From: Bispira polyomma
Lineage: Eukaryota
Direction of reading: 5' to 3'
DNA length: 64,000 bases
Assembly: GCA_965649765.1 (NCBI GenBank)
Contig: OZ287759.1
Span: 1,550,001-1,614,000 of the forward strand
Made by a program: the position numbers and the translations under genes. The notes beneath the pieces were generated by a model. The model had not been told where the DNA came from. It worked only from the letters and a program-made list of their open reading frames with translations, and ran no database searches. Of the stretch, positions 8,951-62,959 are shown piece by piece (positions within the stretch are counted from its first letter, which is position 1; every line of letters starts with the position of its first letter).

Positions 8951-9360
8951 CAATATATTGTTTGTTTTTAAACAGGTATTAGCAATTTTTGTGTAGCTCA
9001 CATTTTCTCCATAAATATTCACACCCATGCTCTTTTTATGATGTGCATTAGTTGATAAATACAATTGACTTTGTCATCCATACCCCTAGGACAAGTAATC
9101 AAAGTGATATGTATGAATATGATTAAAAGTGTGTTCTATCACTAGAACTAAAAAAAAAAAAAAAAATCAGGAATTTAAATTCTACTTACTGGGCTTTTTG
9201 TCTCTCTTCACCAAACAGTAATTAGTAGTATTCCTTTAGAAGATACAATATTTTTTACTTTAATACATAGAGTTATAAAATAAGCTTTTGGTGCCCAAAC
9301 AATAGCCACAGATGGTAGTAAATGTCGTTTGGTCATACTGCCATATCATACCGCCATACT

Positions 9361-22100: not shown

Positions 22101-25100
22101 TCACAATGGTACAAAAATCAAACTAAGGGATGACTTTAACAGAGATTTGGCCTGGTTTGATAAATATTTGGCAGTGTACAATGGAATATCAATGTTTGAT
22201 CACCAACATGCTCACTATATACTTGAACTAGATGCCTGTTTGACAGGTTTAGAGGGTCGACAATTTGGCATACCAGTTAGGCATTCCTATATGTTACAAA
22301 GGACGAGGAATTGTACATCTAGAAATGGTGAAGATTTTGTTAGGTGCAAGGCTCTTCTAAGGTCACTTGAAACAAAAACAGGTGCTGGGTAAATGTAATA
22401 ATAATGCGATAGGTAAGGTAATAATCGCCAGGAAAGCAAAGTCATTTTCTAGCTGTGTGTGCTCGAAATATCTGGTACATAGCTGCCGCAGCAGCCCACA
22501 ATGACTTTCAGTATGGGAAAAAATAAATAAGGGTAGCAGATCTGTTGTCTAGATGGCAGGGTAGTCATGCCAATTGGGTTGAGTTGGCTCAAAAAGTATC
22601 AAATCCTTTGAGGTGTATAGTGTCAAGTTACATGCTAGAGCTACATAATAAAATGTAATAATACATTGCAACCAGAAGCTATGCTTTGTTCTTCAGTTCT
22701 CAAATCACTGCAGAGGCTGCACACTCAAGCCTGCGACAGGATACAAAGTGCTTTCAGACCCAAAACACAGCAAAGTTACACAGCAATGTTCAAAGTGTTT
22801 GTAGCATTTTGTGTTTATGTAAATGTAGCTTTAAAAGCTCTACAAGTTGCAAGTTTATTTACATTTTTAGAATGCTTGAAAGGAAATGATGTTTCAGTGC
22901 AAATGATGGCTAATTATTTGTCGGCTATTTAAGCAAATTTTATTATGTTGGGTATAACTACAACTGCATTGGACCATCCAAAGATTAAAACTTATCTAAA
23001 AGCTGTGAAACTGCAAAGACCAACAAGATCAAAAAATACAATATTATAGATATCCTGATCTTAAAACAAATAGTTCACCAAATTTCCAACCACCCACCCC
23101 TGACTACAGGTCTGTATGTAAGATGTGTGTTAAACAGTAAAGTCTTTTTAAATGTAACTTTTAGCTTATATTTTAACTTTATATCTTAAATGTATGACGG
23201 TGTTGTATATGTCAGTATTATTTTACATGAGGGTCTTGTATAATAGGAAAACTACCCGAATAGTCTATATTAAAAAAATATATGACGAAAGAAGATAAAC
23301 AGTGCAATATAGTTTAATATACTATTTTGTACTTCCAGGTTTGTATTTTATGTTAACTACACTTTTTGACACTAAATGTCAGTATTATTTTACATTATGT
23401 ACTCATATACTTAAATTCTATGTGTAGACTCTAGGAACCCTGGTCCAAGAGGGTTGGACGCCTCAGACTTAAAGTGGGTAGTAGGTTAAGGCCACTATCG
23501 GCCAAATGTTAACCTGAGAGTATTAATTAAAGTATAATATTATGACAAGTTAAGGTAGACATAAAAGTTCGGCCAACTTAGGCCCCAGATTAAGGTTTAC
23601 TTAAAGTGTATGTATACATTAACTTGCTGTTAAGGTCACCTTAAATGTGTAACTAACACAATATATAAACTCTAACTGACCTGTAAGAAAGGTCAACTTA
23701 ATGTTAAAGTAAATATACTCTTGTATACCTGACTGTATATATATATTATAGTAGTGGATTTGATTATATAATAAACACATTTTCCGCATGCAGACGTTTC
23801 TGTCTTTGGATTGGGTGTAAGGGGAATGAATTTTAGGTTTATTTCTGTTGACTTGGCCAGCATGTACAAAATGGAACTCAGACATGTTTTGTGAACGTTT
23901 TATTCATGTAACTCGCAAAGACGTGTAATTAAAGTAGTATAAGTTTTGTGTAGTATTGCATGTGTAGTATTCTATTGTGTAGTAAAAAGGTAACTTACCT
24001 TGTTTAAACATTTACACTCTAAAGGCCATTACCTTAACTAGGCCCTTGTTGAAAAATTTCATGCAAATTGAAATACTCTTAGGCGCCTTCCACAGTGATG
24101 TGTGATTGAGCAACATGAACATTACCTGAAGGAATCCATTAACACTGAAGTACCATATCCCATAACCAAGGGACAAATTGGGTTTGGTATCCATACAATT
24201 ACCTAATGGATAGAAGTGTAACAAAAACCTCTCCTGGCCATGACCTTGGTCTGGAAAAGTCCAGAATATAGGCAGAAAAACTAAGCACAAAAGTTACATT
24301 GTTTATAAAGAATTAAGTCACTATCTGTAAATTCAACAGTAGTCAATTAAGTATGTTCCAAAGACCTATCGAATTAGATATGGTCAGACATCTCCAAGAT
24401 TATTGATTTTAAATAGATATATTTGCCAATAAATGACATTCATACTTTAAGATATATGGTGAACTAAAAGTGAAAAATCAAGCCTGTTATGAGTGTATTT
24501 ATTGTAACAGCAAGTCAACGTGTCTCCTGTAATAGTTTATACTTAGCCTAAGCATCTTTATGAATACCATGGGATTTAGGTGGTGTGTTTAGTGGTAACA
24601 CACTCACCTCCTACTCTGTGGTTAATGTTTCGATGTGGGAAAGTTGGTAGCAGACTTGCTGAATGCCAGTGATTTGCAGAACAAACAACCTCCATCAACA
24701 TATGTGATGTTAAGGCTAAAATATAATCGGTTGTAGCAAAAATAGTTTAATATCTTTCTTTGTAAGTAATCCATTTCACTCCAAATAATGATCCACATCT
24801 TACTTAACCTTCAACAAATACCCCTTCGTCTGCAATAAGTAATTTTGAATTAGTTGAATCAACTTTAATCAACCTCGTGGCAAGGCACCTACTGAAGGGA
24901 TCTTGTTTCCAGGCAATCCAGGCAATATTTATGAAAAACCATTTAGCTTACACTAAATCCAACCCCTAAATTAAGAAAAACACTATACACTTTTAATTTT
25001 ATCATGATAAGCTGATATACAAATAATTCCTAGATTTTCCAAATGAAATGTGTCTTTCCCACATTACCCATAAATTATCCTCGGAAGGAAATAATTAATT

Positions 25101-32524: not shown

Positions 32525-35434
32525 TCAAATATTCCAGTCAAGATGGGTGGCTTCCACCCCTACAGGTAACCACATTGGTTCTACTATAGATTTCCTTAAT
32601 CTGTTTGAAGGTTCGCTAGTTATTGCCCATCTAGATAGCAAGTCTGCTACCTCATTATTTTTACCTAAGACATGTACCACTCGTAGGTCAATATCTGCCC
32701 TGGCAGTTTCCATCTGGATGTTTCGAGCCATGGCTGCCAGAGTAAGATCCCTAGTTTTGCCATTGGTAAGTACCGAGACTACTGCCTGATTGTCGCACAA
32801 TACCACAATTTTATTTCCTGCCCAATGGCAACCCCATAAACGGATAGCCACGAGAATATTGATCATCTCCAAGTGAACAATAGATTAATTTTGAAAGCGT
32901 AGAGGAAGTTGAAGTGTGTACACCTGATTACCCCATCGCCCACCCAGACCTTGCAAGCATGCATCTAGCTCTATACCCATTTTGGGGATTCTATGGTCGC
33001 AGAAAGCAACACCATTGAATTGTGAAATGAATTTACTGAACCATGCAAGGTCTTGTTTGAATTCAGTTGTTAATTGTATGGACCTGTCATCATGTGCCGA
33101 GCGAAGTACATCAAGCATTCTGTTTAGAAAAATGCGTGAAACTTTAACACACTTGGATACATATAATAGGCTGCCTAGTAACGATTGGAGATCTCGTTTT
33201 GAACAGTGTGTTTTTTATGCCACTTTAGGCATACATTCTTGACATCATTGAGTTTTTCCGGTGGAATTGAGACAGTGAAATTTTCTGTGTTTATTAGTAC
33301 ACCCAGACATGTAACACTAGTAGCTGGGCTAATGAGTTTTTTCTGGCTAATTGCAAAACCCAAATCTACTAAAAGTTTATGGAGCATTTTAAAAGACTTT
33401 TCTGCCATACTGGGCGTACTGTACCCTATGACATCATCAATGTAATTCGTGACTTTAAAGCCCTTTTTAGACATAATGAAGCGGACAGCGTCACTTAGGC
33501 GTTGGAATATTGCACTTCCGTGCCTGAACCCAAAGGGCAGGCACGTGTCCACATAATAGTCGTCGAGTTTTAAACCTAAAAGGTCATAGTCTTTAGGGTC
33601 CATTTTGACGTGCCGGAATGCCCGGCTGACATCAATTTTGTACAAAAGAGAGCCTTTGCCTAAGCATCTAACTTTATTTGTGACATCATCTATAGTAGGT
33701 AAGGTAAGCATGAAGGGGGTGCCTAGGTAGCTATTTCTTAGAACCCCTGCATTGACAGATTCACCTAAAGGAAAGCTGAGATCAATTATTACTCTTCTAT
33801 GTGCATCCCCAGGCTTCTCCCTGGTCATGAAGGGTGATATATGTAAGTTTTTTATTGGAGGTTTCTTAAATGGACCTAGTATAGCTTTGAACTGCTTTTC
33901 TTCTTCTAAATATGCTTCAACATCTTTAGTGTAAAATTTTGCAGAATTGTGATTTGTATCTTTATGAGATAGCATATTTGATCTATCAAAGTCAACTGGA
34001 AAGCCATAGCGTATTAGGGAGGGGAGTTGTTTATCCCAATAGTCACCTAGCAATTCTGCCCATTTGTCTGGTTTTAATTCAGATTCTATTTGTATCTGAG
34101 AGCCACAAAAGTTATGCTGTTTATCAGCTGTTATGATCTCATGCAGTTTGCACATAGATGCACTACTTTTATTTTTCCTGTCTCGTGTTGGTATTTTTAA
34201 ATCCCCTATGGGAACAAACCCAAATTTGTCAGTGCTTTGGTCATACCATTCCCTGAAGGTGGCATTATCTACTGCTGTACACATAAGATCCTTGTGCTTT
34301 GGCTTCACCTGTAATTGAAACTCATATTTATCCTCAGTGTTTATATTACTGTTGCTATCCACTTTTAAGTTAAGTTCACCTCGTCCCATGAGTTTAACTT
34401 TGGTTTTAGCAGTGTAAATAACCTGATTTTTTGAGTCACCCATTTGTTTTGTATTAGTCATGTTATGACCCCTATGGGGTTCCGCAGTGGGATCATTTAC
34501 TATTTCCCCTTGGTTATCTATCATTATGGTTTCTTCACATTGAAATTGTTTTAGGGGGGGGGAAACCTGTTGTGTTGGTTCTTTGAGTTACCCGTTTGTT
34601 TTGTATTAGTCATGTTGTGACCCTTATGGGGTTCCGCAGTGGGATCATCTAATGTTTCCCCTTGGTTACCCGTCACTATGGTTTCTTTACACTGAAATTG
34701 TTCTTGGGGCACAAACCTGTTATGTTGGTTCTTTGAGTTATCTGTTCGTTTTGGATTAGTCATGTTGTGACCCTTATGGGGTTCCACAGTGGGATCATTT
34801 ACTATTTCCCCTTGGTTACCCATCACTATGGTTTCTTCACACTGAAATTGTTCTAGGGGGGAAAATCTGTTGTGTGTGCCACTTAAAGTGTCATTATTAA
34901 TTTGTTCACCCCGAGCTGATTGTTTTTTGACACCACCTTTCTGGGGAGGGGGGGGGGGGAAATAACCACCTTATTGTTGCCTTTTACCCATTTGGGAACA
35001 ATTGGGCCAGCATTCACCCTTGTTGGTGGGTGACATTTCCTGACATTCCCTGTAAACGTACATTGGTTAGTGTTTTTATACAATTTCTGTTTTACATTTC
35101 CTGTAAACATGCATTTGTTAGTGTTTTCGGACCATTTGCTTTTTACATGAACATTATTTGACATTTTGTGAAAGCACGAGCTGATTTTGGGGACTGTTTC
35201 CACTTTTTCGTTTTTGTTACTGATTTCCTTTTTATTCCCTTCCTGTACCACTTGTGCATAAGACATTTGATTTACTTTCTTCCAGTCGTGTCTCCAATTC
35301 ATGCTCGCCCTTTCACACATTTCACTATTTACACATATTCTAGTATTAAATTTGTTTACCTGCAACACTTCATCATATTTGATTTTTTCTGATCTTTTGT
35401 GCACTGCCCCTTGGCAGTGCCCTAATCGTTTTTT
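32525..35434 (-). pseudogene. N3 pol (linker-RT-RNase H), frameshifted
   Basis: ORF pieces 34883-35404, 34551-34826, 33175-34524, 32885-33118 and 32525-32872 tile the N4 pol. Confidence 0.9.
34425..34875. repeat. Three ~150-bp tandem repeats (50 codons) in the N3 pol linker
   Basis: GTCATGTT anchors at 34457, 34609 and 34759 (offsets 152 and 150). The peptide GNQGEIVNDPT.EPH.GHNMTN is repeated. Confidence 0.92.
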
Positions 35435-36379: not shown

Positions 36380-38920
36380 AGTGATTTATTACTTCTGTAT
36401 TGTTTGTATAGTCTATACTGAAAATAGAATAACCCGGTTTTGATACATGCATGCACGCTAGAGGTTTTCTATATATTATTTTGACTGGTTGTAAAATTTG
36501 ATGTATAAAGGTATAGGTGTATAAATTAGATATATGTAAAATCATAAAACAAAAAAATAAGAAGATAAAAGCACTTTCCTCTAACAAAGCTCTATGAGCA
36601 GTACGAGCATGACTCAAAACATTGAGTATTTTTTAAGTCTCCTTAAGTACAGGAACCAGCACACCAGTCACCTCAAGATGATCCACGTTTACACTAAAAT
36701 ATCCAGTAAATGTAACTGACTCTAACATATGAAGACAGTCCAACACTGTAAATTCCTAATATAAAACTTTTATATTTAAAAATGGCGTCTTGCCTTCTTG
36801 GTAAACAAATTTATAATGAGGATTATGTGAAAAGAGCGGGAATAGCTGGGGTTATGACCCCATAGCTGGGGTCATGACCCTAGTGTAGCCAATTAGAGAC
36901 TGAACAAGAATAGTTTTAGCAATATTTTGGCAGCACTGACCCTGCTGAGTCCCCGGCCTCACCATACAAAGGCGCAAAATCAGAATCAATCAGCCAATAG
37001 AAAAATGAAGAAAACATAGCCAGGTCATAAGAATGGATACGTCAGCGCTCAGGAAGATGACTACGGCAGATAGGCGAGCCTGAAGAGATAGGTTTCAAGC
37101 CTTTTCCTAAAACCAGAAAATGTATCAAGCAGTCTAAGTTCAACTAGAAGACTGTTCTATAACATAGGGGCGGCTCGCGAGAAGGCTCTAGATCCAACCC
37201 TCTTCGTATTTTTTTAGAGGAAACAGAGAGTCTTTTTCCACTCTTAAGGCTGCTGAAGAAGAGCTTAGTAGCGAGGTAGTGAGGCTGTTGAGAGACAACA
37301 GCTTTAAAAATGGTTATGTGCATTTTGAACATGATTCTATAGTCAATAGGAAGCCAGTGAAGATTCTTGAGGAAGGAGTGACATCAGTACGGATTCCCAA
37401 GGGAAAGATGACTCTACATAGATAGTTTTGAATGGACTGCAACTTGTTTATGTGGTACTTATTGGCTCCATACAGCAGAGAATTACAGTAGTCCAGGCGG
37501 CTACTTACAAGAGGGTTAGCCACAGTGATAGCAGTATCTAGTGACAGATAATTTCTGATTCTTTTGAGGTCCCGAATGTGATAGTAACAGGAGCGGCGAA
37601 TGCTGTTAATGTGAGGAAGAAATGAAGAAGCAGGGTCGATAGTGACACCTAAGTTTTTGTTTTGGTCTGAAGGTTGAATCTCATTGCCTTGCAGTGTGAT
37701 TGGGAAAAGTGATCTGAAGTATTCACTGTGTTTCTTATTTCCAATTAGGATGAATTCAGTTTTGTCAGGGTTTAGTTTCAGTTTGGAGTAGTTTATCCAT
37801 GCCTGAACTGAGGAGAGACAGTCGGCAAGTAAATCCAGGTTGTATCCGGCATTCTGAGTGTTAAGAGAGAGATATATTTGAGTGTTATCAGCATACATGT
37901 GATGTTTAACATTGTGATTATTAATGACTGCACTGAGAGGATCGGTGTAGAGGGTAAACAATAAAGGGTCGAGAACAGACCCCTGGGGTACTCCAAATGG
38001 TAGGTTAAAAGCGGATGAAAAGTGGTCGCACAATTTGATTTTTTGGGTTATAAGAGCAAGGTACGATTTGATCCAATCAAAGACAGTACCATTAAGACCA
38101 AACCACTGTTTTAGGGTGTCAAAAAAGAGTAAGCCATGGTCGATGGTATCTAAAGCTGCGGAGAGATAGAGTAGGGTGAGGGCTACAGTTTCATCACAAT
38201 CCAAAACAAGGTTAATGTCATCACTGATTGACAGGAGAGCACTCTCCGTGGAGTGAAATTTTCTGCAGGCAGATTGGTGGCAGTTAGCTAGAGTTTGTTT
38301 ATTAAGGTGGTTATGAATTTTTTTAGCAACAGCTTTCTTAATAAGTTTACATACAAAGCTGAGATTAGAGACTGGTCTATAGTTTTCTAGCCCAGTTTTG
38401 TCAAGGCCTGTTTTTTCAGCAAGGGGGCAACATATGCATGTCCTTTGGCAATCTTGATTTATTAAGAAATTACTCTTAAGTAATCTTAAAATGTATTTGC
38501 AAGAAGGGCGACTTTGTAAAACAAATCCTTTAAAACAGTTTTGTTTGGTTCCACAAAACTAATTTTGTTTACTAGTATGATCTTACAGGCACAGTGTTAA
38601 TATTAAAACTACAAAGATTTGGACATAACTATTAAAATTACACAAGTCAATTATCCATAAATATCAATAAGAGAAAGAGTTTTCAGCTCACAAAGAGAAA
38701 ACAAAAACTGTATATTCATTATAATTTCATTCTGCACCACAAATCACAAAGTCTGAGTAATTTCTATTTGCAACATGTCACCTGACTCAGTCAGAAACAC
38801 ATAAAAGATCCATTAACCGGGCTCTGCCTCAACACTTCACAGCAAATGGAGACTAAATCAAGCCTTTTATATGGACTTCCCCTCTAGCCTAGTGTAAGCA
38901 GCACATACTGCTCTAATTCG

Positions 38921-41859: not shown

Positions 41860-42610
41860 TTTTAACGTGCTTTATTAATCTATTCTATTAAATAGCACCA
41901 AGAAGATCAATGTTTTTGTGTGGTTGAGAGAGAGTGATAGACTTGATTATCATTAACATACGTGTGGTGTTTGATATTATGTTAATGATGACAGTGCTGA
42001 GGAGATGTGTATAGAGGGTGAAAATAGGGACCTAAGGACAGACCCCTGGGATACTGTGCATAGTAGTTTAATAGAGGATGATAAGTGATAATCTAATTAT
42101 TTTTTGGTGCTCTAAGGGTAAGACAAGATCTGATCCAGTCAAGGACATTGGCATTTACTCCAAACTGTTGTTTAAGGCTATTGCAAATAAGCCACGGTCA
42201 AGTGTATCAAAGACTGCTTAGAGATATAAACGGGTGTGGACCATGGTTTTGTTGTGGCCCAAGGCAAGGTTAATATCATTTTCGAAAGAAAAAAGGGCAC
42301 TTTCTGTAGCATGAAAATTTCTGTAGGTATATTGGTGACAGTTTTCAATGTTATGTGTGTTGAAGTGGTCAGAGATTTGTTGTACCACTGGTTGTTCGAC
42401 GAGTAAAGAGATCAAGCTGAGATTTGACACAGGACTGTAGTTTTTAAGTAGGTTTTTGTCAAGCCCTGGTTTTTTTTAGCGAGGGAGTAATATTAGCAGC
42501 TATAATTCAAGTGGGGAAAATATCATTACAAAGAGAAAAAATCATTATGTTGGTTACAGGTGTGACGAGAATACCGTCAGAAAGAGACAAACTTAGGTGT
42601 GGTGAGGATT
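41860..42610 (-). mobile_element. Decayed L2-clade LINE (paralog of 7790-8950)
   Basis: SNLSLIS...QYTYRNFHATESAL (ORF 42218-42430) and a PQGSVL motif at ~42030-42050. Confidence 0.75.
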
Positions 42611-47716: not shown

Positions 47717-48270
47717 ACAGTGCCCTACCCTAGTAAACTTGTAGATGTGGTGTAACACAGGAAAATAACAAGAAAGGTAGGTTTTGGGGATATTAGCTTT
47801 AATTTGACTATGTTATCACTAATAATTATTTACATACTGTGTAGTAAGGGGCCACCTTAGCCCCAAGAGTTTAGGAGAAGTTAAGAGTTTAAGGTGACCT
47901 TAACCTGAGGACAACAGGCCAAAGTGACCAAAGGGATTTTTAAAATTTAAGGGGTAGCCCTAGCTTGAAAGTTAGGGCTACCTAAGATTGAGTTTAAGGT
48001 TAAGGGTAGCCCTAACTTGGAAGTTAGGGTTACCAAAGATTGAAATTTTAAGGTTGAATTTAGGGGTAACCCTAACTTGAAGTTAGGGTAACCTTAGAAT
48101 GAGTTTAAGTTTAAGAAAAATGGTAACCTTAGATTTTATTTGAGGTTGCCAAAAGAGATTTAGTAAAGATGTAAAATGATTAAATTAGTATAAGGTAAGG
48201 TGGCCCCAAAATATTTATATTTAAGCATTATTATATTTTATTTGTATATAATGTATGTAAATAAAGCCCC
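47717..48270 (-). repeat. N4 repeat B2 (554 bp, 3' terminus)
   Basis: Matches 49371-49924 at a constant offset of 1654. Confidence 0.95.
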
Positions 48271-49179
48271 CAAAAAGGGTAAAATCGAAATTAAAAAACC
48301 ATGGTACTAGCTAAGAAACTAAAACCTGTGCTGCTCACTAATAAAGTCCATAAGAGTAGCAAAAACTCACTAAACCTTAAACCCCTAGCATATACAATTA
48401 CCATGGCTTACAGAGAACATGCATACAGACATGAGCAAAATATAAATCGAGTAGCTCTTGTCTTCCAGGAGGGCAGTGCTTGCTTGTATAGAGTTCATTC
48501 CTGACTGAGCCACAAGAGATCCATGAATCCAGTGTGCCTGAAACTACATGCTTACAGTTGAACATGTGATCACAAAGTTACCAAATGCACTTGCACACAA
48601 CATGATGTGCAATGCATTATAACGTTATACTAGCGACAACACGAGGTTGCGAAATACAAACATTTTACAAATCCAGTCCTCGTTGTGACGAGGAACAACA
48701 TTAATAGTTATACTTTACATGCTACTATGACAACAAAAAGGATGCGACTTCACATACTGTACACATATAAAATCGTGCTGCCTGACGCAGGACATTTGGC
48801 AACATTATCAATTTGATATACAACAAAGGGAAGACCCTGAAAACAATAAAGTAACATACATTGATAACTACAAAAGGAGACGCAACCTCAGCAGCAAGCA
48901 GCTACCTAAAATTAAGTGTTGGCCCCTAAGGGCCCTGGTGTTACCCAGAAAAGTATGGGAGATAAGTCACCTGAGGCCCCAGAAGGCCCCCAAGGGCGGG
49001 GAACTGTGAAGGCCAGCAGTAATGCATAACTCGTGGGCCCACAGCCCCGAGCCCCCACCCCCCTGCGCCAAGGTGTAAAGTGAGACTTCAGGAACCCCAG
49101 GGACTGCATGCCGCACTCCAGGGACGGACGCATAGCTGAAAACTACAGAGGAAGTAGTAGGGGCAAGTGGGTGGGTAAT

Positions 49180-49373
49180 GTAAAATATTAAAGATGGCGT
49201 TGTTGCCCAAATGACTTCAATAGTATAAGTGAGGATTCTAGCTAAAAAGCGGGAAAACAGAGGTTAATTAGTACACAAGTGACCAATTAGGAAGGGGTTC
49301 ATAGGGCATGAACCCAGGGTAGAAAATACTAGTAGCACTGAACTTGCTATCCCCTACGGCGCTACCCCGCACA
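49180..49373 (-). repeat. N4 repeat A2 (194 bp, internal)
   Basis: Matches 54714-54907 at a constant offset of 5534. Confidence 0.95.
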
Positions 49374-49924
49374 GTGCCCTACCCTAGTAAACTTGTAGAT
49401 GTGGTGTAACACAGGAAAATAACAAGAAAGGTAGGTTTTGGGGATATTAGCTTTAATTTGACTATGTTATCACTAATAATTATTTACATACTGTGTAGTA
49501 AGGGGCCACCTTAGCCCCAAGAGTTTAGGAGAAGTTAAGAGTTTAAGGTGACCTTAACCTGAGGACAACAGGCCAAAGTGACCAAAGGGATTTTTAAAAT
49601 TTAAGGGGTAGCCCTAGCTTGAAAGTTAGGGCTACCTAAGATTGAGTTTAAGGTTAAGGGTAGCCCTAACTTGGAAGTTAGGGTTACCAAAGATTGAAAT
49701 TTTAAGGTTGAATTTAGGGGTAACCCTAACTTGAAGTTAGGGTAACCTTAGAATGAGTTTAAGTTTAAGAAAAATGGTAACCTTAGATTTTATTTGAGGT
49801 TGCCAAAAGAGATTTAGTAAAGATGTAAAATGATTAAATTAGTATAAGGTAAGGTGGCCCCAAAATATTTATATTTAAGCATTATTATATTTTATTTGTA
49901 TATAATGTATGTAAATAAAGCCCC
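49371..49924 (-). repeat. N4 repeat B1 (554 bp, internal, overlaps A2 by 3 bp)
   Basis: Starts 9 bp after the YR stop and matches B2. Confidence 0.95.
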
Positions 49925-49933
49925 AAAGCCCAA

Positions 49934-50925
49934 CTAGGAAGTAGTGGAAGGGGAAAGGAGGGCCTTGAAGGTGAGGGTGACTTGGTCAGATGCATTGTGA
50001 TCCTGTACAATATATTTCCACACACAATCAGACGTCCAAGTGCCATGGCTCTGGATATCTTGAATTGGGACATTATTGTTGAAGGCCAAGGTGGCACCTG
50101 AACGCCTGAAGGTGTGGAAAGAAATGTTTGATTGCTGGAGGCCAAGATGCCTCAAAATTTGAGTGAGATTTTGTCTAGCTTGGGTGTCAATCATTGGGGA
50201 CCATTTATGGTCTTTTTTAAACTGAAAGAGAGGAGAATTTTTGTGTCCAGGAGTAATAGCTAGTAAGGCCCTTGTGGCAGCCACCGGACAAAGACTAGAG
50301 CCACTTAGGCTCGGTATTTTAATAACTTTTGCTACATTTTTTGACTGCATTGTTTTAGACCACTGTATTATGAGGTGGAGGCCAGGGGAGGCAAAAAGTA
50401 CGTCCCCCCGGGACAGTTGGACTAGTGGAGAGAATTGAGAGACAGCATGTGGAAGTAAGTTCGATATTCTAAGAAAAGAAAAGAAAGCAATGAGGTACAG
50501 AGCCTTGAAGACCTGCCCCATGTACATGCTGTCACAAATTTGAGTAATTTGGAGTAACAGGGGAATGTCAATAATAGCGTTAATTTTAGCCCTGAAGGGG
50601 CTATTGAGTGTGAGGGCTTTTTGGTAATACTTAATTCTAGGATCTGCAAATGCAGAGACGTCAAGGGCATAGAGGGCCAATTTAGCCTTAACCGCCGAGA
50701 GGTAGTTTGCAATGGAGGAGGAAGAGACATGATTAACCACTAATACTTCTAAGAAAGCCAATACAATGAGGGGGGAGATATTTTGAGGCCTGACCTGAGC
50801 AAAACTACAATAGGCCAAGAATATCCTAAACATATTTGTATAGGCCCTTTCAGTGGCTGGTCTAAAGGCCTGATGGGCTCTGTATGAGGCTTGTGTAGCA
50901 ATCTTTCTTAGCTTGGAAGGTACAT
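49934..50925 (-). CDS. N4 tyrosine recombinase (predicted exon 2 of a Gag-YR fusion; the open frame extends to 50980)
   Basis: Complete catalytic set: R (FLRISNL), K (WSKT), HxxR (HTFR), H/W (HGTW) and Y (VWKYI). Confidence 0.93.
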
Positions 50926-50940
50926 CTGCAATTAGATAGA

Positions 50941-53406
50941 TCAATCTATTTCTAACATTGTGTCTTTTACTTTTACCCATTTGGGATTCGATACCAGTTC
51001 TAGTAACTTGTCATTATTGCTGGCCGTGATCTGCCACCTAGAGAGGAGATCAGCCACTGTATTAAGTCTACCTAAAATGTGAATGGTTTTGAGACTGATA
51101 TCATGGGAGGCTACAGTCATGAAGATGTTTCTGGCAATAGCTGCCAAAGTGAGGTCTTTAGTTTTGCCTGAATTGAGGATAGTGACCACGGCAACATTGT
51201 CGCATTGCAATATTAACCTCTTACCTGCCCACGCTGACTTCCATAGCCTAATGGCAACTAAGATGTTTAACATCTCCAGATGAACTATCGTGAAATCTAG
51301 ATAACCTAGAGGAATTTGGAATTGGTATACCTCATCATTACAACGACCTCCCAGACCTTGGAGGCACGCATCCAACTGAATACAATCGGTAGTGGGTTTG
51401 TGTTCAAAGAAGGCTTTTCCATTAAATGTTGGTAAAAATTTTTTAAACCAATTTACATCCTGATGAAACTCAGGTGTAAGTTTTACTTTTTGATCCGGGC
51501 CTACAGATCTTAGGACATCAAGCATTCGGTTTAAGAAAGCACGTGAAACTCGAACACATTTGGATACATATAACAATTTACCTAGCAGTGACTGCAAGTC
51601 CCTCTTACTGCAGTAGTTTCTTAATTGCCAGTCTTGCACAAGTGTGTTTATTTCTAGTAGCTTTTCATCTGGCAATGAGATTGTCAAGTCATTTGTATTA
51701 ACTAACACCCCCAGACACGTTACTGACGTGCTGGGGTGAACAAGTTTTTTGTGACTAATCGCAAAGCCTAGTTCCTGGAGTAAGTTGAGCAATATATCAA
51801 ATGAATGTTTACTTTCTATGACGTCACCATAGCCGATTACGTCGTCGATATAGTTGGTGACGTCATGTCCGTGACGTTTCATGATGTACCTGACGGCGTC
51901 ACTTAATCGCTGAAAAATGGTGCTCCCGTGCCGAAAACCAAATGGGAGGCAAGAGTCGACGTAGTATTTGTCTAATTTTAAGCCTAATAGATTGTAATCG
52001 GCTGGATCCATTTTTACGTGACGAAATGCCCGACTTACGTCAATTTTATATAAGAGCGTTCCACGTCCCATACGACATATTTTGTTTGTGATTGTGTCAA
52101 TTGTAGGAAGGGTTAATGCAAACGCAGTACCGAGATACTTATCCTTGACTACAGCCGAATTCACAGAGTTGCCATGAGGAAAGCTTAAATCTATGATAAC
52201 GCGCCTGTGTGCGGCACCTGGCTTTTCCCTAGTCATAAAGGGAGAAATATGGAGGTTTTGTATGGGGGCCTTATGGAAAGGGCTCAACATGGCGCCTAAC
52301 TCAGTCTCTTCTTTTAAATAAGCATGCACATCATCTGGAAATTGTGTTGCAGATGAATGATTCTGTTCTGTATGAGATAACTTGCTGTCAGGATTAAAAT
52401 CGAGGGGAAACCCATATCTTATCAAAAAGGGAAGTTGTTTATCCCAGTAGTCAGTCAAGTATTTTTCCCATACATCTGGGTTCAACTCAGATTTCAATTG
52501 AACTTGTGCCCCCATATAATTTGGGTAGTTGTCCTGCTTAATCTGAGTGTGTAACTCTAACAGAGACTTATCCGACTTTACTCGTTTATCCGTTTGGGGA
52601 ACTTGGAGGTCATTTAGCGGAATAAACCCATACTTATCTGTAGTTTGAGTATCCCATTGCTGGAACTGAGGCTGGTTGCAAGCACGTTTTATAAGTTCCT
52701 TGTTTTTCGATTTAGTTTGTAGTTCTAGGTCATATTTGTCTGATTTTATTCCCCCAATACCTCGAGAGAGTATTTTAAGACCTTGACCTTGGTTACAAGT
52801 ATCTGGTAAATGTGTGACAGAGTTGTCACTAGTGTCCATATAATGGTCATTGTCACTCAAAGGGGAAAACCTATTGTGAGTGGAAATGGGCCATTTGCCC
52901 TGAATGTCTAATTTTGTGCTTTTCAGCTTTTGGCCAAATTGATCACCTTTTGTTGGAGGGGGTTTACCCATTTCTGACATTACATTATTCCTCTGTGCAC
53001 TTGTAAAAGGGAAAGCTCCTTTTGTGAAAGCTTTAACACTCACTCTGTGCCCCAGTTCATGTTTTGTGGACACTTCTGACATTTGGTTATTATTTAAACA
53101 TGGTGAACATTTAACATGGTGACTTTGACACCTCTGATTCACATTTGCACTTTGTACAGAAACCTTTATGGCAGCAGACCTGGAGGGAGCCTTTCTTTTA
53201 ACCACATCAGCATAAGATCTATTTACAAATTTGGCCCAATCTGCCCTCCAATGTGTACTGCCAGTATTACATTTAAGACTATTAAACATAGTTCTAGTGG
53301 GAAAACCTTTAGAATTATTTACAACTTTTTGTGCAAGTTTTTTACTGACCACCTCTTGTGTGGAAGAAACATAGGCTGGCACTGCATTACTGCAGTGCCT
53401 TACTCG
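50941..53406 (-). CDS. N4 pol: linker + reverse transcriptase + RNase H, in the -1 frame relative to gag
   Basis: KIDVSRAF, LPFGFRHGS, NYIDD, QLDACLQGLGG, HLEMLN, CDNVAVV and NTVADLLSR. It ends at TGA three codons earlier than N3 and N5 (W to stop). Confidence 0.95.
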   Translation of the reverse strand, partial: RVRHCSNAVPAYVSSTQEVVSKKLAQKVVNNSKGFPTRTMFNSLKCNTGSTHWRADWAKFVNRSYADVVKRKAPSRSAAIKVSVQSANVNQRCQSHHVKCSPCLNNNQMSEVSTKHELGHRVSVKAFTKGAFPFTSAQRNNVMSEMGKPPPTKGDQFGQKLKSTKLDIQGKWPISTHNRFSPLSDNDHYMDTSDNSVTHLPDTCNQGQGLKILSRGIGGIKSDKYDLELQTKSKNKELIKRACNQPQFQQWDTQTTDKYGFIPLNDLQVPQTDKRVKSDKSLLELHTQIKQDNYPNYMGAQVQLKSELNPDVWEKYLTDYWDKQLPFLIRYGFPLDFNPDSKLSHTEQNHSSATQFPDDVHAYLKEETELGAMLSPFHKAPIQNLHISPFMTREKPGAAHRRVIIDLSFPHGNSVNSAVVKDKYLGTAFALTLPTIDTITNKICRMGRGTLLYKIDVSRAFRHVKMDPADYNLLGLKLDKYYVDSCLPFGFRHGSTIFQRLSDAVRYIMKRHGHDVTNYIDDVIGYGDVIESKHSFDILLNLLQELGFAISHKKLVHPSTSVTCLGVLVNTNDLTISLPDEKLLEINTLVQDWQLRNYCSKRDLQSLLGKLLYVSKCVRVSRAFLNRMLDVLRSVGPDQKVKLTPEFHQDVNWFKKFLPTFNGKAFFEHKPTTDCIQLDACLQGLGGRCNDEVYQFQIPLGYLDFTIVHLEMLNILVAIRLWKSAWAGKRLILQCDNVAVVTILNSGKTKDLTLAAIARNIFMTVASHDISLKTIHILGRLNTVADLLSRWQITASNNDKLLELVSNPKWVKVKDTMLEID

Positions 53407-53412
53407 TTTTTT
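53378..53412 (-). promoter_or_regulatory. Predicted -1 programmed ribosomal frameshift signal
   Basis: A_AAA_AAC (53412-53406), spacer GAGTAA, then hairpin GGCACTGCA-GTAA-TGCAGTGCC. Also present at 35401-35434 (-) and 60398-60432 (+). Confidence 0.82.
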
Positions 53413-54374
53413 AACGGATATTTTTTACAGTCTTTTGCAGGGTGGGGGTAATACCTCCCATTTTGAAAGCATTGGTTACACACGTGACTATATGACACAC
53501 CTTTGAATTCGTGATCCCCTTTTTGGGGGCAAGTACCCTTTTGGAAGTACCTACATGGGATGGACTTCTCATGACTTTTCCTGGTGTTGGTTTGATGATT
53601 ACTATTTGCAGTCTGGATGACAACCCTTTGGGCATGAGCCCGTCTAATCCTGTCCAACTTGTGGGCATCTCCCCAGGTTACCTTACCCTCTTCCATTTTA
53701 CACAGTACAACGGCATGGCTAGCCTTAGCCGAGGTCCAGGAAAAGTCATGAGCGTCCTCCATGAGGTCAGTGAGATAGTCCAACATTTGGTTCTTAACGT
53801 CTAAACTACTTTCATCTCTAGCTATACTGGCAAAACCAGAGACCCACTGGGCCATTGACAACGCGTCATACGTAACTCGTGTTTTGTTTTGTCCCCCTAG
53901 TATAACGTTCTGAGGCCAAGCCACCTTATTCTTCACCCACAGAGTGTCGGGACCCCCTCTTTGAGATTTTGACGTACCTGATTCATTAATGGCCACCAAT
54001 TCCTTAAGACGTGAATCCACTGCAGTCTGTAGGGAGTCGGATGAACGTAGTGTCTGTAGCGTCGGAACCAGTAGCTCAGAAGTGGTTAGCTCCGCCTGTC
54101 TAGGTTGGGCTGCACTCCCCGGGCTCGACACCGGCAAAGCCTGGGCTCCATGTGAACTGCGATAAACTTGCTGCTCAACTTGGGTCATACGCCCACTTAA
54201 TGCTTTGAGTTCAGTCAAAATTTGTAGGTTAACGTCGGCAGCAGTTACACCATCGCTAGCCACAGAGTTCTGCTTGGAAGTTCCCACACCGGTATATAAT
54301 TTACAGTTTTCATCAATGGGTTTAATATGACTAGTTTCACACTTGTGACAGTAGTATTGTTTCCTTGGGGCCAT
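53400..54374 (-). CDS. N4 gag-like ORF1 (324 aa)
   Basis: ATG-initiated. N-terminal CxxC-x3-H-x7-C motif, a coiled-coil-like segment, and a C-terminal zinc-finger cluster CRYFQKGTC...HVCNQC...HPAKDC typical of Ngaro ORF1. Confidence 0.92.
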   Translation of the reverse strand: MAPRKQYYCHKCETSHIKPIDENCKLYTGVGTSKQNSVASDGVTAADVNLQILTELKALSGRMTQVEQQVYRSSHGAQALPVSSPGSAAQPRQAELTTSELLVPTLQTLRSSDSLQTAVDSRLKELVAINESGTSKSQRGGPDTLWVKNKVAWPQNVILGGQNKTRVTYDALSMAQWVSGFASIARDESSLDVKNQMLDYLTDLMEDAHDFSWTSAKASHAVVLCKMEEGKVTWGDAHKLDRIRRAHAQRVVIQTANSNHQTNTRKSHEKSIPCRYFQKGTCPQKGDHEFKGVSYSHVCNQCFQNGRYYPHPAKDCKKYPLKNE

Positions 54375-54713
54375 AGCCTCTGAATAATATAAGAACTCGT
54401 ATCTTTGATACCTGCAACTATACTAAAGGAACTGTAGCGCGATAATCTGAATTAAATTATATGTAATCATGCAAATAGCCGTGAATTTGATGCAATATAA
54501 TTGATTTGACCACGTTCCTTTACCACCGCTCAAACGAGCATATAATCGCAAGACTCAAAGTAGAGTAAAACACAGGAATCCAGCAAAGACACTGCAGATC
54601 AGTTCCTCCTTAGTGTGTAGCACAACTTAGTGAATCATTTGTTGCATTCTTTGTTTCCATAACACAAATATTAAAATCAGTGAAGTAAAAATAAAACACA
54701 TAAAAATAATAAC

Positions 54714-54907
54714 GTAAAATATTAAAGATGGCGTTGTTGCCCAAATGACTTCAATAGTATAAGTGAGGATTCTAGCTAAAAAGCGGGAAAACAGAGGTTA
54801 ATTAGTACACAAGTGACCAATTAGGAAGGGGTTCATAGGGCATGAACCCAGGGTAGAAAATACTAGTAGCACTGAACTTGCTATCCCCTACGGCGCTACC
54901 CCGCACA
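54714..54907 (-). repeat. N4 repeat A1 (194 bp, 5' terminus, promoter-like)
   Basis: Matches A2. Contains CCAAT, TTTTCCCGC and CGCCATCTT motifs. Confidence 0.95.
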
Positions 54908-59582: not shown

Positions 59583-60410
59583 ATGGCGCCAAGAAAACAG
59601 TGTGACTGTTCTAAATGTGGCTTTGCCCACGCTAAACCTATAGACGATAACTGTACCGGTAATACTTCGGTGGAAGTAGAAACGCAGAACTCTGTTCCTA
59701 GTGATGGTGTGACCTCAACCGAAATTAACTTGCAAATACTCACCGAACTGAAAGCTTTAAGTAGTCGAATTTCGAAGGTTGAAGAAAAGGTTGATCACAG
59801 GGAACATAGAGCCCAGTTCTCGGGGGCAACTCCGAGTCTGGATAGTCCTGTCCAGAAGTCCCAGGCAGCCCAGCTAGAGGAGTTATTGGTCCAGACCTTG
59901 CAGACCTTGAGAACATCCCAATCCCTGCAGACTGCTGTCGACTCACGCTTAAAGGAGCTAGTCCAGATTAATGAATCAGGTGCAAGTCACAACGTGGAGG
60001 CACGGAGACGGTTTGGGTTAAGAACAAAGCATCCTGGCCGCAAAGTTACATACTAGGGGGACAGAATAAATCTAGAGTCTCTTATGACTCCCTTTCTATG
60101 TCTCAATGGGTGGCTGGTTTTGCCAGCATTGCTAGGGTAGAGTCTGATATTGATACTAAAAATAATATGTTAGAGTACTTAGCTGATCTCATGGAAGACT
60201 CTCATGACTTTTCTTGGGCCTCTGCTAAGGGCAGCCATGCTGTGCTTTTGTGCAAAGCCAATTCCTTGTAGATACTACCAAAAGGGTACTTGCCCTCACA
60301 AAGGTGAGCATGAAACTAGAGGAGTAACATACAGTCATGTCTGTAGTGAATGTCATAAAAACTCTCATCCCAGTAAAGATTGTCGCAAAAGCTCAACAAA
60401 AAACGAGTAA
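59583..60410 (+). pseudogene. N5 gag (frameshift at ~59981, internal deletion at ~60253)
   Basis: MAPRKQ start as in N4. The frame breaks after INESG; ends KNE*. Confidence 0.88.
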
Positions 60411-62959
60411 GGCTCTGCATTATTGCAGTGCCAGCTCACTTATCTTCTGAAGCTGCAACAGACTGGGTTAACAAGGGTTATTCTGGTAATGTGTCTAAAT
60501 TTCATACTAGAACTGTATATAGTAGTAAGGATCAGTATGGCAGCACTTGCTGGGAAACAGATTGGGCTAGGTATCAAAACAAGTCCTATGCTGATATTGT
60601 TAAAACAGGCAAACTTGTAAATAATGATATCCATAGTAAATGTGTGAAACCACTGTATAAACATGAATATATGTCGCATGTGTTGAAAGATGTAACCACT
60701 AACAAAATTTCAGGCGGAGCAAACAATGGCCCTGGGGGAATTTTCCCCCAAAAAACCATTACTCGTGTACAAAGACACAGGCCCAAAACCCTGAAATCAC
60801 AAAGCCATGTAGGCGCTCACAACCTAATTAATATCACTCGCCAGGAACCAGCAAAGGTTTGTGTCAAGGATAAATTTAGTGGCCTGAACAGCCCTGAAGG
60901 AGGGCAAGTAATGACTAATAAGTATCAACCTGTCCACAAAGTCCAAAAATGCCCCTCAACCAGCACACAACAATGGGTCACACCCACAAGTAACAAATTT
61001 GCACTCCTGCAGGACAATGGTTCCTCTAAGAGTAGCCTGGCCAGTGATATTACCGACCTACATACTCCCAGTACTGACAATGGTGGTAGTACACAAGGTG
61101 TACAATTCCAAGCAAATACTAAAGTGGGGAAAAAGTGCAATGTACCCAAATTAGATAAGTATGACTTGGAATTGCAAGTAAAACCTAAAACACGGGATCT
61201 AATTAAACAAGCAAAGGATGAACCTCAGTTCCAGCAGTGGAATGACCAAAACTCGGATAAATATGGTTTTATACCACTTGGTAAGCTTCGACTTCCCATA
61301 GCAGATAAACGAGTTAAATTAAACAACACCTTGCTTGAGCTACATATCGTTATTAAAGACCAAAATTGTCCCAATTTTATGGGCCCTCAGATAGAAATAA
61401 AATCTGAATTAAATCTGGATGTTTGGGAAAAATACCAAGTCCATTATTGGGATAAACAGCTCCCTTTCTTAATTCGCTATGGTTTCCCCCTTGACTTTCA
61501 CAAAGGCAGTAAGCTCTCACACATAGAGAAAAATCACCAATCCACGACCCAGTATCCGGATGACGTCAAGGCGTACCTAAACGAAGAAACAAAATTTGGT
61601 GCCATGCTGGGCCCTTTTGAAAGTGTTCCAATTAAAGACCTCCATATTTCACCCTTTATGACTAGAGAGAAACCGGGTGGGGCTCATCGGCGAGTCATAA
61701 TAGACTTAAGCTTTCCACATGGTGAGTCGGTAAACTCGGCTGTAGCCAAGGACAACTAGTTGGATACTGCTTTTTCCCTCACCCTTCCTACTATTGATAC
61801 TATTACTAGCAAAATTGCCCGTTTAGGCAGAGGAACGTTACTCTATAAAATTTACGTCAGTCGGGCATTCTGTCACGTGAAGATGGACCTGGCTGACTAC
61901 AACTTAGGACTAAAATTAGAAAAATACTATGTAGACTCATGTCTACCCTTTGGATTTCGGCATGGGAGCGCCATTTTCCAACGCCTAAGTGACGCGGTCA
62001 GGTATATTATGAAAAATCATGGCTGTGACATCACCAACTACATCGACGACGTAATCGGTTTTGGTGACGTCACTGAAAGCAAGCGTTCATTTGACCTACT
62101 GTATAACCTATTACAAGAACTAGGTTTTCCTCTCAGTCACAAAAAGCTGGTGCATCCCAGCACTGCAGTCATATGTCTAGGTGTATTAGTCAATACGGTA
62201 GATCTAACAGTCTCCCTTCCGGATGAGAAACTACAGGATATCAATGCCCTAATTCAAGACTGGCAAAACCAAAAAGTATGCACTAAGCGAGAATTACAGT
62301 CCCTCTTGGGCAAACTTCTCTATATTTCAAAATGTGTAAGAGTCTCAAGGTTGTTTTTGAACCGTATGTTAGACGTCCTCAGATCAGTAGGAGCCAGTCA
62401 GAAGATTCAGCTCACACCAGAATTTTTCCAGGACATAAACTGGTTCACAAAATTTCTACCAAAATTTAATGGCAAAGCCTTCTTTGAGCATGAGCCTGCC
62501 ACTGATTGTATTCAGTTAGACGCTTGCCTTCAAGGGTTGGGGGGGCGTTGTAACGACGAAGTATATGAATTTTCGATTCCTCTAGGCTACCAAAATATGA
62601 CTATACTCCACCTTGAAATGCTTAATATCCTGGTGGCTATTAGGCTCTGGAAATCCACCTGGGCAGGCAAAAGACTTATACTTCAATGCGACAACGCTGC
62701 TGTAGTTATAATCTTGAACTCAGGCAAAACAAGAGAAATTACATTAGCAGCTATTGCCAGAAACATATTTATGGAGGTGGCTTCTGCTGACATCAGCCTT
62801 AAGACAATTCATATATTGGGTAGATTAAATACTGTGGCTGATCTGCTATCTAGATGGCACATCACCACAGGCAGTGACCAAAAGTTAGAAGAATTGATTC
62901 CTAACCCCCAATGGCTCAAGGTTCGACCTAGCATGCTAGAAATAGATTGGTCTATTTAA
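60398..62959 (+). pseudogene. N5 pol (in-frame stop at 61757-61759, RT catalytic D changed to Y in KIYVSRAF)
   Basis: ORFs 60380-61759 and 61760-62959 are in one frame and colinear with N4 pol. Confidence 0.92.

What the first reader, a model, noticed from the sequence alone, without database searches (positions are those of the whole stretch)
53378..53412. Textbook -1 ribosomal frameshift cassette, with covariation, fuses Gag to RT-RNase H
Seen: three copies end gag with A_AAA_AAC-GAN-stop followed by a hairpin 6-7 nt after the heptamer. N4 GGCACTGCA-GTAA-TGCAGTGCC (9 bp, GNRA loop); N5 GGCTCTGCA-TTAT-TGCAGTGCC (60411-60432, one mismatch); N3 GCACTGCC-AAGG-GGCAGTGC (35401-35420; the loop-closing A-U is replaced by C-G and the loop differs). 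In all three, the -1 frame is the pol frame, which has no nearby conserved ATG. Established: X_XXY_YYZ plus a downstream structure is the retroviral -1 PRF signal. Inference: a ~1144-aa Gag-Pol in N4. Together with the intron, one promoter could yield Gag, Gag-Pol and GagN-YR with no protease, a retrovirus-like strategy in a YR element.
Basis: partly seen in the sequence, partly recalled or inferred. Interest (0 to 1): 0.82.

Follow-up and report, generated by a model that had tools for sequence, protein, structure and literature searches.

The report
Conserved frameshift signal in Ngaro retrotransposons
A large group of jumping genes that insert with a tyrosine recombinase keeps, at the end of its structural gene, the same slippery sequence and RNA hairpin that retroviruses use, so ribosomes likely slip back one base there to make a fused structural-enzyme protein, while the recombinase is predicted to come from a spliced RNA.

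Summary
N4 is a Ngaro-type element (split repeats, gag, RT-RNase H, YR, no methyltransferase found). A_AAA_AAC sits in gag phase, 6 nt before a 9-bp hairpin; pol is in the -1 frame (1,144-aa fusion by arithmetic). Among 109 distinct copies retrieved by Gag protein, 99 carry the heptamer; of 100 ending K-N, codons are AAA 100, AAC 97, preceding base A 99. Genome-wide 1,137 cassettes match; the basal core pair swaps G-C (428) / C-G (670). Distant families keep the heptamer with other hairpins or predicted pseudoknots. No start codon is conserved. Corrections: the cited loop-closing pair is weak covariation, GNRA is not conserved, N5 and N3 are decayed. YR frame varies (0/+1/-1) while splice sites are kept, favouring a spliced GagN-YR over the published YR-frameshift proposal. 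A sister clade has in-frame gag-UAG-pol instead (candidate readthrough). The scan earlier noted the splice and a UAG junction in other genomes. No RNA or ribosome data: frameshifting is inferred (~0.87). Known mechanism, newly defined in YR retrotransposons.

The parts
54710..54907 (-). N4 5' split direct repeat A1 (198 nt)
   Evidence: 99% identical to A2
53400..54374 (-). N4 gag-like ORF1, 324 aa from ATG; N-terminal Cys/His finger, coiled coil, helical domain, C-terminal CCCH and CCHC-type knuckles, ends K-N-E-stop
   Evidence: no Pfam hit
53972..53980 (-). predicted 5' splice site CAG|GTACGT, phase 1, exon ends 53978 (397 nt from ATG)
   Evidence: AG|GTA in phase 1 in 40 of 43 anchored elements
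53406..53412 (-). slippery heptamer A_AAA_AAC in gag phase
   Evidence: only gag-phase X_XXY_YYZ in N4 gag; 99 of 109 copies
53400..53405 (-). 6-nt spacer GAG TAA containing the gag stop
53378..53399 (-). 9-bp hairpin with GUAA loop, predicted frameshift stimulator; invariant core CACUGC/GCAGUG
50941..53424 (-). pol ORF in the -1 frame: ~221-codon non-conserved linker, RT (RVT_1 E 2.7e-11), RNase H-like end; no D[ST]G, no methyltransferase hit
50921..50931 (-). predicted 3' splice site TTGCAG|AT (intron 53977-50926, 3,052 nt), in frame with the donor
49934..50925 (-). tyrosine recombinase exon; predicted GagN-YR product 462 aa
   Evidence: Phage_integrase E 1.9e-5, SAM-like domain
49371..49927 (-). 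repeat B1 (557 nt)
   Evidence: 99.8% to B2
49176..49373 (-). repeat A2
47717..48273 (-). repeat B2, 3' end of N4
60398..60432 (+). N5 cassette (heptamer, GAG TAA, hairpin with one mismatch) in a decayed copy
35401..35434 (-). N3 cassette (heptamer, GAT TAG G, 8-bp hairpin closed by C-G) in a decayed copy; the same loop recurs in other genomic copies

Best explanation
The A_AAA_AAC heptamer and downstream hairpin are conserved across a large clade of Ngaro-type retrotransposons and likely act as a -1 programmed ribosomal frameshift signal that makes a Gag-RT-RNase H fusion at a few percent of Gag. Shown: the sequence, its phase, its codon-level conservation, the fixed 6-9 nt spacing of a stem, the -1 frame of pol, the open linker. 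Inferred: a ribosome with tRNA-Lys and tRNA-Asn on AAA AAC pauses at the stem, both tRNAs re-pair one base back, and translation continues through the linker into RT-RNase H (1,144 aa in N4); the other ribosomes stop two codons later and release Gag (324 aa). By analogy with 9-bp hairpin reporters (about 3-6% in HeLa, 5-8% in lysate, PMC3203594) the yield would be low single digits to ~8%. Also inferred: a spliced RNA that removes the whole pol region joins the first 132 codons of gag to the recombinase (462 aa), so one transcript would give Gag, Gag-Pol and GagN-YR, with no protease to cut them.
For: Protein-retrieved copies anchored on the zinc knuckle and first stop, not on the motif: 99 of 109 have A_AAA_AAY 0 or 3 nt before the stop; of the 100 ending K-N(-x), K = AAA in 100, N = AAC in 97, preceding base A in 99 across seven amino acids, against gag backgrounds of 0.62, 0.38 and 0.24, and none of 48 other invariant Gag columns uses one codon in all 16 families (max 0.88). 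A stem of 7 bp or more starts 5-9 nt downstream in 92 of 99 versus 11% of 2,970 control positions. Spacing follows the heptamer, not the stop. Basal pair G-C 428 / C-G 670, non-Watson-Crick 39, none G-G or C-C, reversed-pattern controls 0; 0 of 500 shuffles reach the covariation score. Distant families keep the heptamer with unrelated hairpins or predicted H-type pseudoknots. Pol core in the -1 frame in 34 of 48 elements, linker of 189-271 codons fully open in 28 although it has 0-2 invariant residues per 50; four such copies have no Met in it; first invariant Met is residue 393. Gag homologs from other genomes end KN/KNx in 72 of 89, and longer ones read KNE-x-GTA, the hairpin arm in frame 0. 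A sister clade has in-frame gag-UAG-pol (29 of 34), the other classic way to the same fusion. A_AAA_AAC is among the shiftiest heptamers and spacers of 5-9 nt are typical (PMC5009743); AAAAAAC plus a plain hairpin gave 23% in lysate (PMC3203594).
Against: No RNA, ribosome or protein data were available. Copies are related, so counts are not independent, and the G-C/C-G swap may be one ancestral event; six of the stem's pairs never vary and so say nothing for structure; pairs with two-sided change (3) did not beat shuffles (277 of 500). The 16 of 16 comes from copies pre-selected for a slippery heptamer. 14 of 48 elements have the pol core in another frame (read as decay). The 7-9 bp stem is shorter than natural stimulatory hairpins (10-12 bp). 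The 3' arm contains GCAG|TG, which would be an in-frame acceptor for the gag donor. In a more distant homolog set 21 of 64 Gags show no terminal KN.
Confidence: 0.87

Rival explanations
1. Pol is made from a spliced RNA: the gag donor joins to GCAG|TG in the hairpin's 3' arm, and the hairpin regulates access to that acceptor.
For: GCAG|TG is invariant in 15 of 16 families and the phase-1 donor would join it in the pol frame; it would explain the sequence invariance of the stem core; splicing is evidently used for YR.
Against: Upstream pyrimidine fraction 0.26-0.41 (30 nt) versus 0.44-0.78 at the YR acceptors; 32 of 42 have two or more AGs in the preceding 20 nt versus 0 of 42 YR acceptors; families with other stems lack it yet keep the heptamer; it leaves the fixed A_AAA_AAC unexplained.
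Confidence: 0.05
2. Pol starts at an internal AUG (reinitiation after the gag stop, leaky scanning or a subgenomic RNA); heptamer and hairpin serve something else.
For: N4 has Met at codon 41 of the -1 frame with A at -3; most copies have some Met in the linker.
Against: First Met ranges from codon 3 to 147 and is absent from the whole 204-271-codon linker in 4 of 28 open copies; the frame stays open upstream of the first Met; no invariant Met before residue 393.
Confidence: 0.03
3. RNA polymerase slips on the A6 run and adds a base, giving some transcripts a fused frame.
For: A run of six A's is conserved; polymerase slippage on A runs is known in viruses (recalled).
Against: Does not explain the fixed C at the seventh position, the gag phase, or a downstream stem at ribosomal spacing.
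Confidence: 0.02
4. The frameshift is real but the hairpin's invariant core has a second or main role as a sequence-specific site (packaging or dimerisation signal, protection from nonsense-mediated decay after the gag stop, or a protein site that tunes frameshifting). Not exclusive of the best explanation.
For: CACUGC/GCAGUG never varies in 15 families at 41-81% Gag identity although wobble-compatible changes are possible; the same letters show through in outside homologs; the stem is short for a purely mechanical stimulator.
Against: At least four families (L131, L136, L167, L178 types) replaced it with other structures; overlapping coding (H-C-x-x-A-V in the -1 frame) and the cost of two-step changes in a short stem can also freeze it.
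Confidence: 0.2

Closest known systems
Retroviral -1 frameshift signals with a plain hairpin (HTLV-2 gag-pro, HIV-1 gag-pol) or pseudoknot (MMTV, SRV-1 gag-pro)
   Same: X_XXY_YYZ heptamer at the end of gag just after the zinc knuckles, 5-9 nt spacer, hairpin or pseudoknot (PMC3203594, PMC5009743 passages). That HTLV and MMTV gag-pro use A_AAA_AAC itself is recalled, not read.
   Different: The shift leads through a long disordered-looking linker straight to RT-RNase H; no protease motif; stem is 7-9 bp with a frozen core; integration enzyme is a tyrosine recombinase predicted to come from a spliced RNA.
Ngaro retrotransposons (DIRS order)
   Same: A1-ORFs-B1-A2-B2 split repeats, gag-like ORF1 with zinc fingers, RT-RNase H, downstream YR, no methyltransferase, no protease or DDE integrase (PMC3783388, PMC4157794, PMC8547959).
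   Different: No gag-pol recoding signal is described in the papers I could read. Poulter and Butler 2015, as quoted in PMC13003380, propose a -1 frameshift from RT/RH into YR; here YR lies in frame -1, +1 or 0 (19, 12, 13 of 44) with conserved splice sites instead. No SGNH hydrolase ORF (longest frame in the 3' region 98 codons).
Ty3/Gypsy LTR retrotransposon gag-pol frameshifting and PEG10
   Same: Pol in the -1 frame with classical heptamers in many animal elements (28 of 51 in the survey cited in PMC5009743).
   Different: Those encode protease and DDE integrase within Pol and have LTRs.
Gammaretroviral gag-UAG-pol readthrough and spumaviral or env-type splicing (recalled)
   Same: The sister clade's in-frame UAG-G junction parallels readthrough; use of a spliced RNA for the 3' gene parallels env.
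   Different: Here the spliced product is the integration enzyme and would keep the N-terminal third of Gag.

Membership tests
-1 programmed ribosomal frameshift signal | X_XXY_YYZ heptamer in the 0-frame phase | tested here: met
-1 programmed ribosomal frameshift signal | stimulatory structure 5-9 nt downstream | tested here: met
   92 of 99 with a stem of 7 bp or more vs 11% of controls; folds; structure predicted, not probed
-1 programmed ribosomal frameshift signal | downstream ORF open in the -1 frame across the site and lacking its own conserved start | tested here: met
   holds for N4 and N5, not for decayed N3
-1 programmed ribosomal frameshift signal | nucleotide-level conservation beyond protein need | tested here: met
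-1 programmed ribosomal frameshift signal | measured trans-frame product dependent on heptamer and structure | not testable with these tools
   needs reporter, ribosome profiling or mass spectrometry
Ngaro retrotransposon | split direct repeats A1-ORFs-B1-A2-B2 | tested here: met
   (about 900 nt lie between A2 and B2 in N4)
Ngaro retrotransposon | gag-like ORF, RT-RNase H, then YR on the same strand | tested here: met
   (RVT_1; RVT_3 weak in N5; Phage_integrase below its curated cut-off, H-x-x-R motif present)
Ngaro retrotransposon | no methyltransferase after RNase H (separates it from DIRS1-like and PAT) | tested here: met
   only RVT_1 on the 827-aa pol at E 0.01; pol ends about 30 residues after the last RNase H-like motif in 10 of 10 fully open copies
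Ngaro retrotransposon | RT clusters with reference Ngaro elements | not tested
   no named reference sequence came from a tool; PMC4157794 warns that a PAT lineage lost its MT, so structure alone can mislead
PAT-like DIRS element | methyltransferase domain | tested here: not met
Retrovirus or LTR retrotransposon Gag-Pol | aspartic protease and DDE integrase in Pol | tested here: not met
   no D[ST]G in 10 of 10 fully open pol frames; no such Pfam hit
Retrovirus or LTR retrotransposon Gag-Pol | Gag with a retroviral capsid fold | tested here: inconclusive
   model pLDDT 76.9, pTM 0.45; best structural scores at chance level

The most novel reading that the evidence does not exclude
Ngaro elements run a protease-free, retrovirus-like three-product programme in which the gag-pol recoding signal is a swappable module (hairpin or pseudoknot frameshift in one clade, UAG readthrough in its sister), and the frozen CACUGC/GCAGUG stem is a sequence-specific binding site, for instance for Gag's own zinc knuckles, making this a protein-regulated frameshift that also sorts genomic from spliced RNA.
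Probability: 0.12. Interest if true: 0.85.

Novelty: new variant of a known kind. Interest (0 to 1): 0.6.

Why it matters
How tyrosine-recombinase retrotransposons express their three overlapping or start-less ORFs is an open point in the papers I could read; the one proposal I found (as a quotation) puts the frameshift between RT/RH and YR. Here more than a thousand copies in one genome put it between gag and pol, define a 35-nt cassette that can go straight into a reporter, and point to splicing for YR. A Gag-Pol fusion at low ratio implies that RT is recruited through Gag, as in particle-forming retroelements, although no protease exists to release it. A GagN-YR fusion offers a mechanism for the observation that ORF1 appears to set Ngaro integration preference (PMC8547959, section 11). 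The family is also a natural mutational series for frameshift stimulators, and annotation of these ORFs from the first ATG would be wrong.

Tried and rejected
No RNA holder listed for the element; laying three contig runs of unknown kind gave no joint across the predicted intron, uninformative. Pattern scans: 0 in viral contigs; 6 in metagenome contigs, none with gag, pol or YR similarity, shaped like opposite-strand bacterial terminators. Rfam: nothing near a gathering score. Gag: no Pfam family, Atlas hits unnamed and weak, no structural match above chance; the Foldseek PDB search could not be queued. Cluster look-up gave no names or accessions, so host range is unknown. A G_GGA_AAC at the gag end of the old N2 copy looked like a heptamer swap but is private; its family has an in-frame UAG junction, and the C_CCA_AAC in one of those families opens only 6 codons in -1. 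A lower stem pairing the spacer (GAGU/ACUC, GAAU/AUUC) forms in some families and N5 but not N4; not general. A palindromic dimer signal (ACTGCAGT) is not kept in all families. A frameshift into YR was rejected: no in-phase heptamer in the N4 pol/YR overlap and frame not conserved. Poulter and Butler 2015 and Goodwin and Poulter 2004 were not held.
Full report
Observation. On the minus strand N4 reads TTA AAA AAC GAG TAA in gag phase, with the heptamer at 53412-53406 and the hairpin GGCACTGCA-GTAA-TGCAGTGCC at 53399-53378. N5 and N3 match their descriptions. Each hairpin region folds better than all 200 shuffles (z -4.2, -4.3, -5.6). In N4 it is the only gag-phase slippery heptamer, and the hairpin is the second most stable 30-nt site in gag-pol. 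The pol ORF (827 codons stop to stop, RVT_1 E 2.7e-11) begins 18 nt before the end of the heptamer in the -1 frame; Gag is 324 aa and the fusion 323 + 821 = 1,144 aa. N3 and N5 are decayed: both have broken gag frames, N5 lacks the splice donor, and in N3 the -1 frame closes after 183 codons with the RT core in another frame.

The element. N4 has A1 (54907-54710), gag, pol, YR, B1 (49927-49371), A2 (49373-49176), about 900 nt, and B2 (48273-47717). Pol shows no methyltransferase hit and no D[ST]G motif in 10 of 10 fully open copies. This is the Ngaro arrangement as described in PMC3783388, PMC4157794 and PMC8547959; a tree with named references was not made, so membership rests on anatomy. The window lies in a 1.035-Gb genome, G000.

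Heptamer. A first pattern found 296 matches against 2 for the reversed control. To avoid selecting on the motif I retrieved copies with three Gag proteins (only the best 104-151 of about 9,000-9,800 candidates were scored each time; two queries include their own terminal KN) and anchored them on the last zinc knuckle and the first stop. Of 130 such loci 124 had the knuckle in frame and 109 were distinct; 99 have A_AAA_AAY 0 or 3 nt before the stop (96 AAC, 3 AAT). The ten misses are premature stops, indels, rearrangements and one G_AAA_AAC. Among the 100 that end K-N(-x), Lys is AAA in 100, Asn AAC in 97 and the preceding base is A in 99, the preceding residue being any of A, S, T, V, P, L, I. 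Backgrounds in gag are 0.62, 0.38 and 0.24, and in 16 families (42-81% identical to N4) none of 48 other invariant columns uses a single codon (max 0.88), whereas these two do (representatives there were drawn from heptamer-bearing copies, so one search is the unbiased count). Copies are related and the counts are not independent events.

Stimulator. A stem of at least 7 bp starts 5-9 nt after the heptamer in 92 of 99 copies and at 11% of 2,970 control positions. The distance is set by the heptamer: the stop can be at +0, +3 or 21 nt further on. In 17 aligned sequences (15 hairpin families plus N3 and N5; the one family with another structure left out) the basal core pair is GC 10 / CG 7, the next GC 8 / CG 3 / unpaired 6, the loop-closing pair AU 12 / CG 1 / UA 1 / unpaired 3, and six pairs (CACUGC/GCAGUG) are invariant but for N5; covariation score and percent paired beat all 500 shuffles and all slid controls, the number of pairs with two-sided change does not (277 of 500). 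Genome-wide the basal pair is C-G in 670 and G-C in 428 of 1,137 matches; the other 39 are C-A 14, C-U 2, G-U 19, G-A 4. That swap may be a single ancestral event. Within the N4 family (29 copies) loop positions vary 9.5% and arms 0.8%, similar to upstream gag (0.8%) and below the downstream linker (4.1%). Four more distant groups keep the heptamer with unrelated structures: a predicted H-type pseudoknot of 6 + 9 bp 8 nt downstream (L170, L171, L139), a GC-rich long-loop stem with a possible second helix (L172 type), and two other hairpins (L167/L179/L180, L178).

Entry into pol. Of 48 longer elements with both heptamer and pol core located, 34 have the core in the -1 frame; in 28 the 189-271-codon linker is fully open while the other two frames hold 306 and 803 stops over the same 6,463 codons; the linker has 0-2 invariant residues per 50 beyond its first 11 codons; first Met ranges from codon 3 to 147 and is missing in four copies; the first invariant Met is residue 393. 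The 14 other elements are read as decayed, because sister copies of most are in the -1 frame.

Outside this genome. Gag homologs at 50% identity or less end KN or KNx in 72 of 89 with both knuckles, and longer ones continue KNE-x-GTA or KNEYSTAAMQC, which is the hairpin read in frame 0; one ends in the -1 frame peptide KKRVRHCSSAV. Many may come from one other assembly (shared contig lengths). In a wider profile search (3,831 hits, best 150 seen; the profile contains the KN columns) 30 of 64 end KN/KNx, 13 have KN nearby and 21 have none, so the signal is a property of a clade, not of all Ngaro-like Gags.

YR. The intron claim holds at sequence level. A phase-1 AG|GTA donor lies 3 codons (once 6) before KSQRG in 40 of 43 anchored elements (8 could not be anchored). 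YR is in frame -1, +1 or 0 relative to pol in 19, 12 and 13 of 44 elements, which excludes a conserved frameshift. The most pyrimidine-rich YAG after the pol stop is in phase 1 in 37 of 43, some phase-1 YAG exists in 42 of 43, and the exon is 325-329 codons in 21 of 24 open copies. In N4 the intron is 53977-50926 and the product 462 aa. A Met near codon 30 of the YR exon in most families is an alternative start on such an RNA.

Sister clade. Following the old copy at 10-14 kb, 29 of 34 distinct copies with an in-frame knuckle end gag at UAG-G, and four have 933-1,015 open codons with RT in the same frame right after it; similar YR acceptors are seen in those four and a similar donor in most longer copies. 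An RT tree separates 15 frameshift-type from 4 readthrough-type rows with 100/100 support (unrooted). This is a candidate for stop-codon readthrough, the other standard route to Gag-Pol, and supports the view that the selected function is a low-level fusion.

Mechanism. Most likely: tandem tRNA slippage on A_AAA_AAC while the ribosome meets the stem, giving Gag-Pol at a few percent; Gag from termination two codons later; GagN-YR from a spliced RNA. Sequence, phase, conservation and open frames are shown; slippage, splicing, ratios and a single promoter are inferred. Basis from print: A_AAA_AAC among the shiftiest heptamers and 5-9 nt spacers (PMC5009743, passages, first 300,000 of 449,034 characters held); 23% with AAAAAAC and a 12-bp hairpin, about 5-8% in lysate and 2.9-6.1% in HeLa for 9-bp hairpins on UUUAAAC, tenfold loss from a mid-stem mismatch (PMC3203594, passages and one part of the main section). 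Main rivals: splicing to GCAG|TG in the 3' arm (in frame, but purine-rich, preceded by AGs, absent from distant families), internal initiation, polymerase slippage. The frozen core remains unexplained and may mark a second, sequence-specific role.

Prior knowledge. Nine literature searches found no description of a gag-pol slippery site or a gag-YR splice in Ngaro or DIRS elements. I saw passages only of PMC3783388, PMC6681497, PMC3266345, PMC9210276, PMC7192593, PMC4157794, PMC9341512, PMC12477816, PMC2632668, PMC13003380 and bioRxiv 2022.06.16.496473, and passages plus section 11 of PMC8547959. PMC13003380 quotes Poulter and Butler 2015 as proposing a -1 frameshift from RT/RH into YR. That review and Goodwin and Poulter 2004 were not held, no supplements were read and Repbase was not searchable; any of these may already note a gag/pol frameshift. 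Earlier notes of this scan (unchecked) report a Gag-YR splice in a diatom-like genome and an in-frame gag-UAG-pol junction in a protist; none report this heptamer cassette.

Verdict. Real, conserved, and most likely a -1 frameshift signal (0.87). The mechanism is textbook; its place in tyrosine-recombinase retrotransposons, paired with a spliced recombinase and with readthrough in the sister clade, is the new part. New variant of a known kind; interest 0.6.

Noticed in passing
window 10113-14285 (-) and loci L182-L230: Sister clade of YR elements with gag ending at UAG-G and pol in the same frame (29 of 34 copies; four with 933-1,015 open codons), often with CAA CTA or CAA CCA three or four codons downstream; candidate stop-codon readthrough.
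   Followed up: partly
L170, L171, L139 (8 nt after the heptamer): Predicted H-type pseudoknot (6-bp and 9-bp stems) replacing the hairpin behind the same A_AAA_AAC.
   Followed up: partly
L167, L179, L180: Family whose gag runs seven codons past the heptamer and stops inside a different hairpin placed 8 nt after it.
   Followed up: partly
window 52749-53406 (-): Linker of about 220 codons between the shift site and the first conserved pol motif: open in all families, almost no conserved residues, length 189-271; in N3 it holds 150-nt tandem repeats (34404-34855).
   Followed up: partly
window 48274-49175 (-): About 900 nt between repeats A2 and B2 of N4 with no frame over 98 codons; the A and B repeats overlap by TGT, which also borders both ends of the element.
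   Followed up: no
window 21165-23052 (+): A further, heavily decayed RT-RNase H-YR element with no gag match.
   Followed up: no
window 37314-38558 (-), with related stretches near 3800, 8100-8800 and 42200-42500: RT-like ORF of 414 codons of a different, non-LTR-looking type (label from recall, not tested).
   Followed up: no
window 193-1314 (-): Open frame of 373 codons over a 174-nt tandem duplication (408-755); not examined.
   Followed up: no
L116, L124, L074, L224: Single copies in which an indel or a changed stop has put gag and pol in one frame; each is a minority in its family.
   Followed up: no
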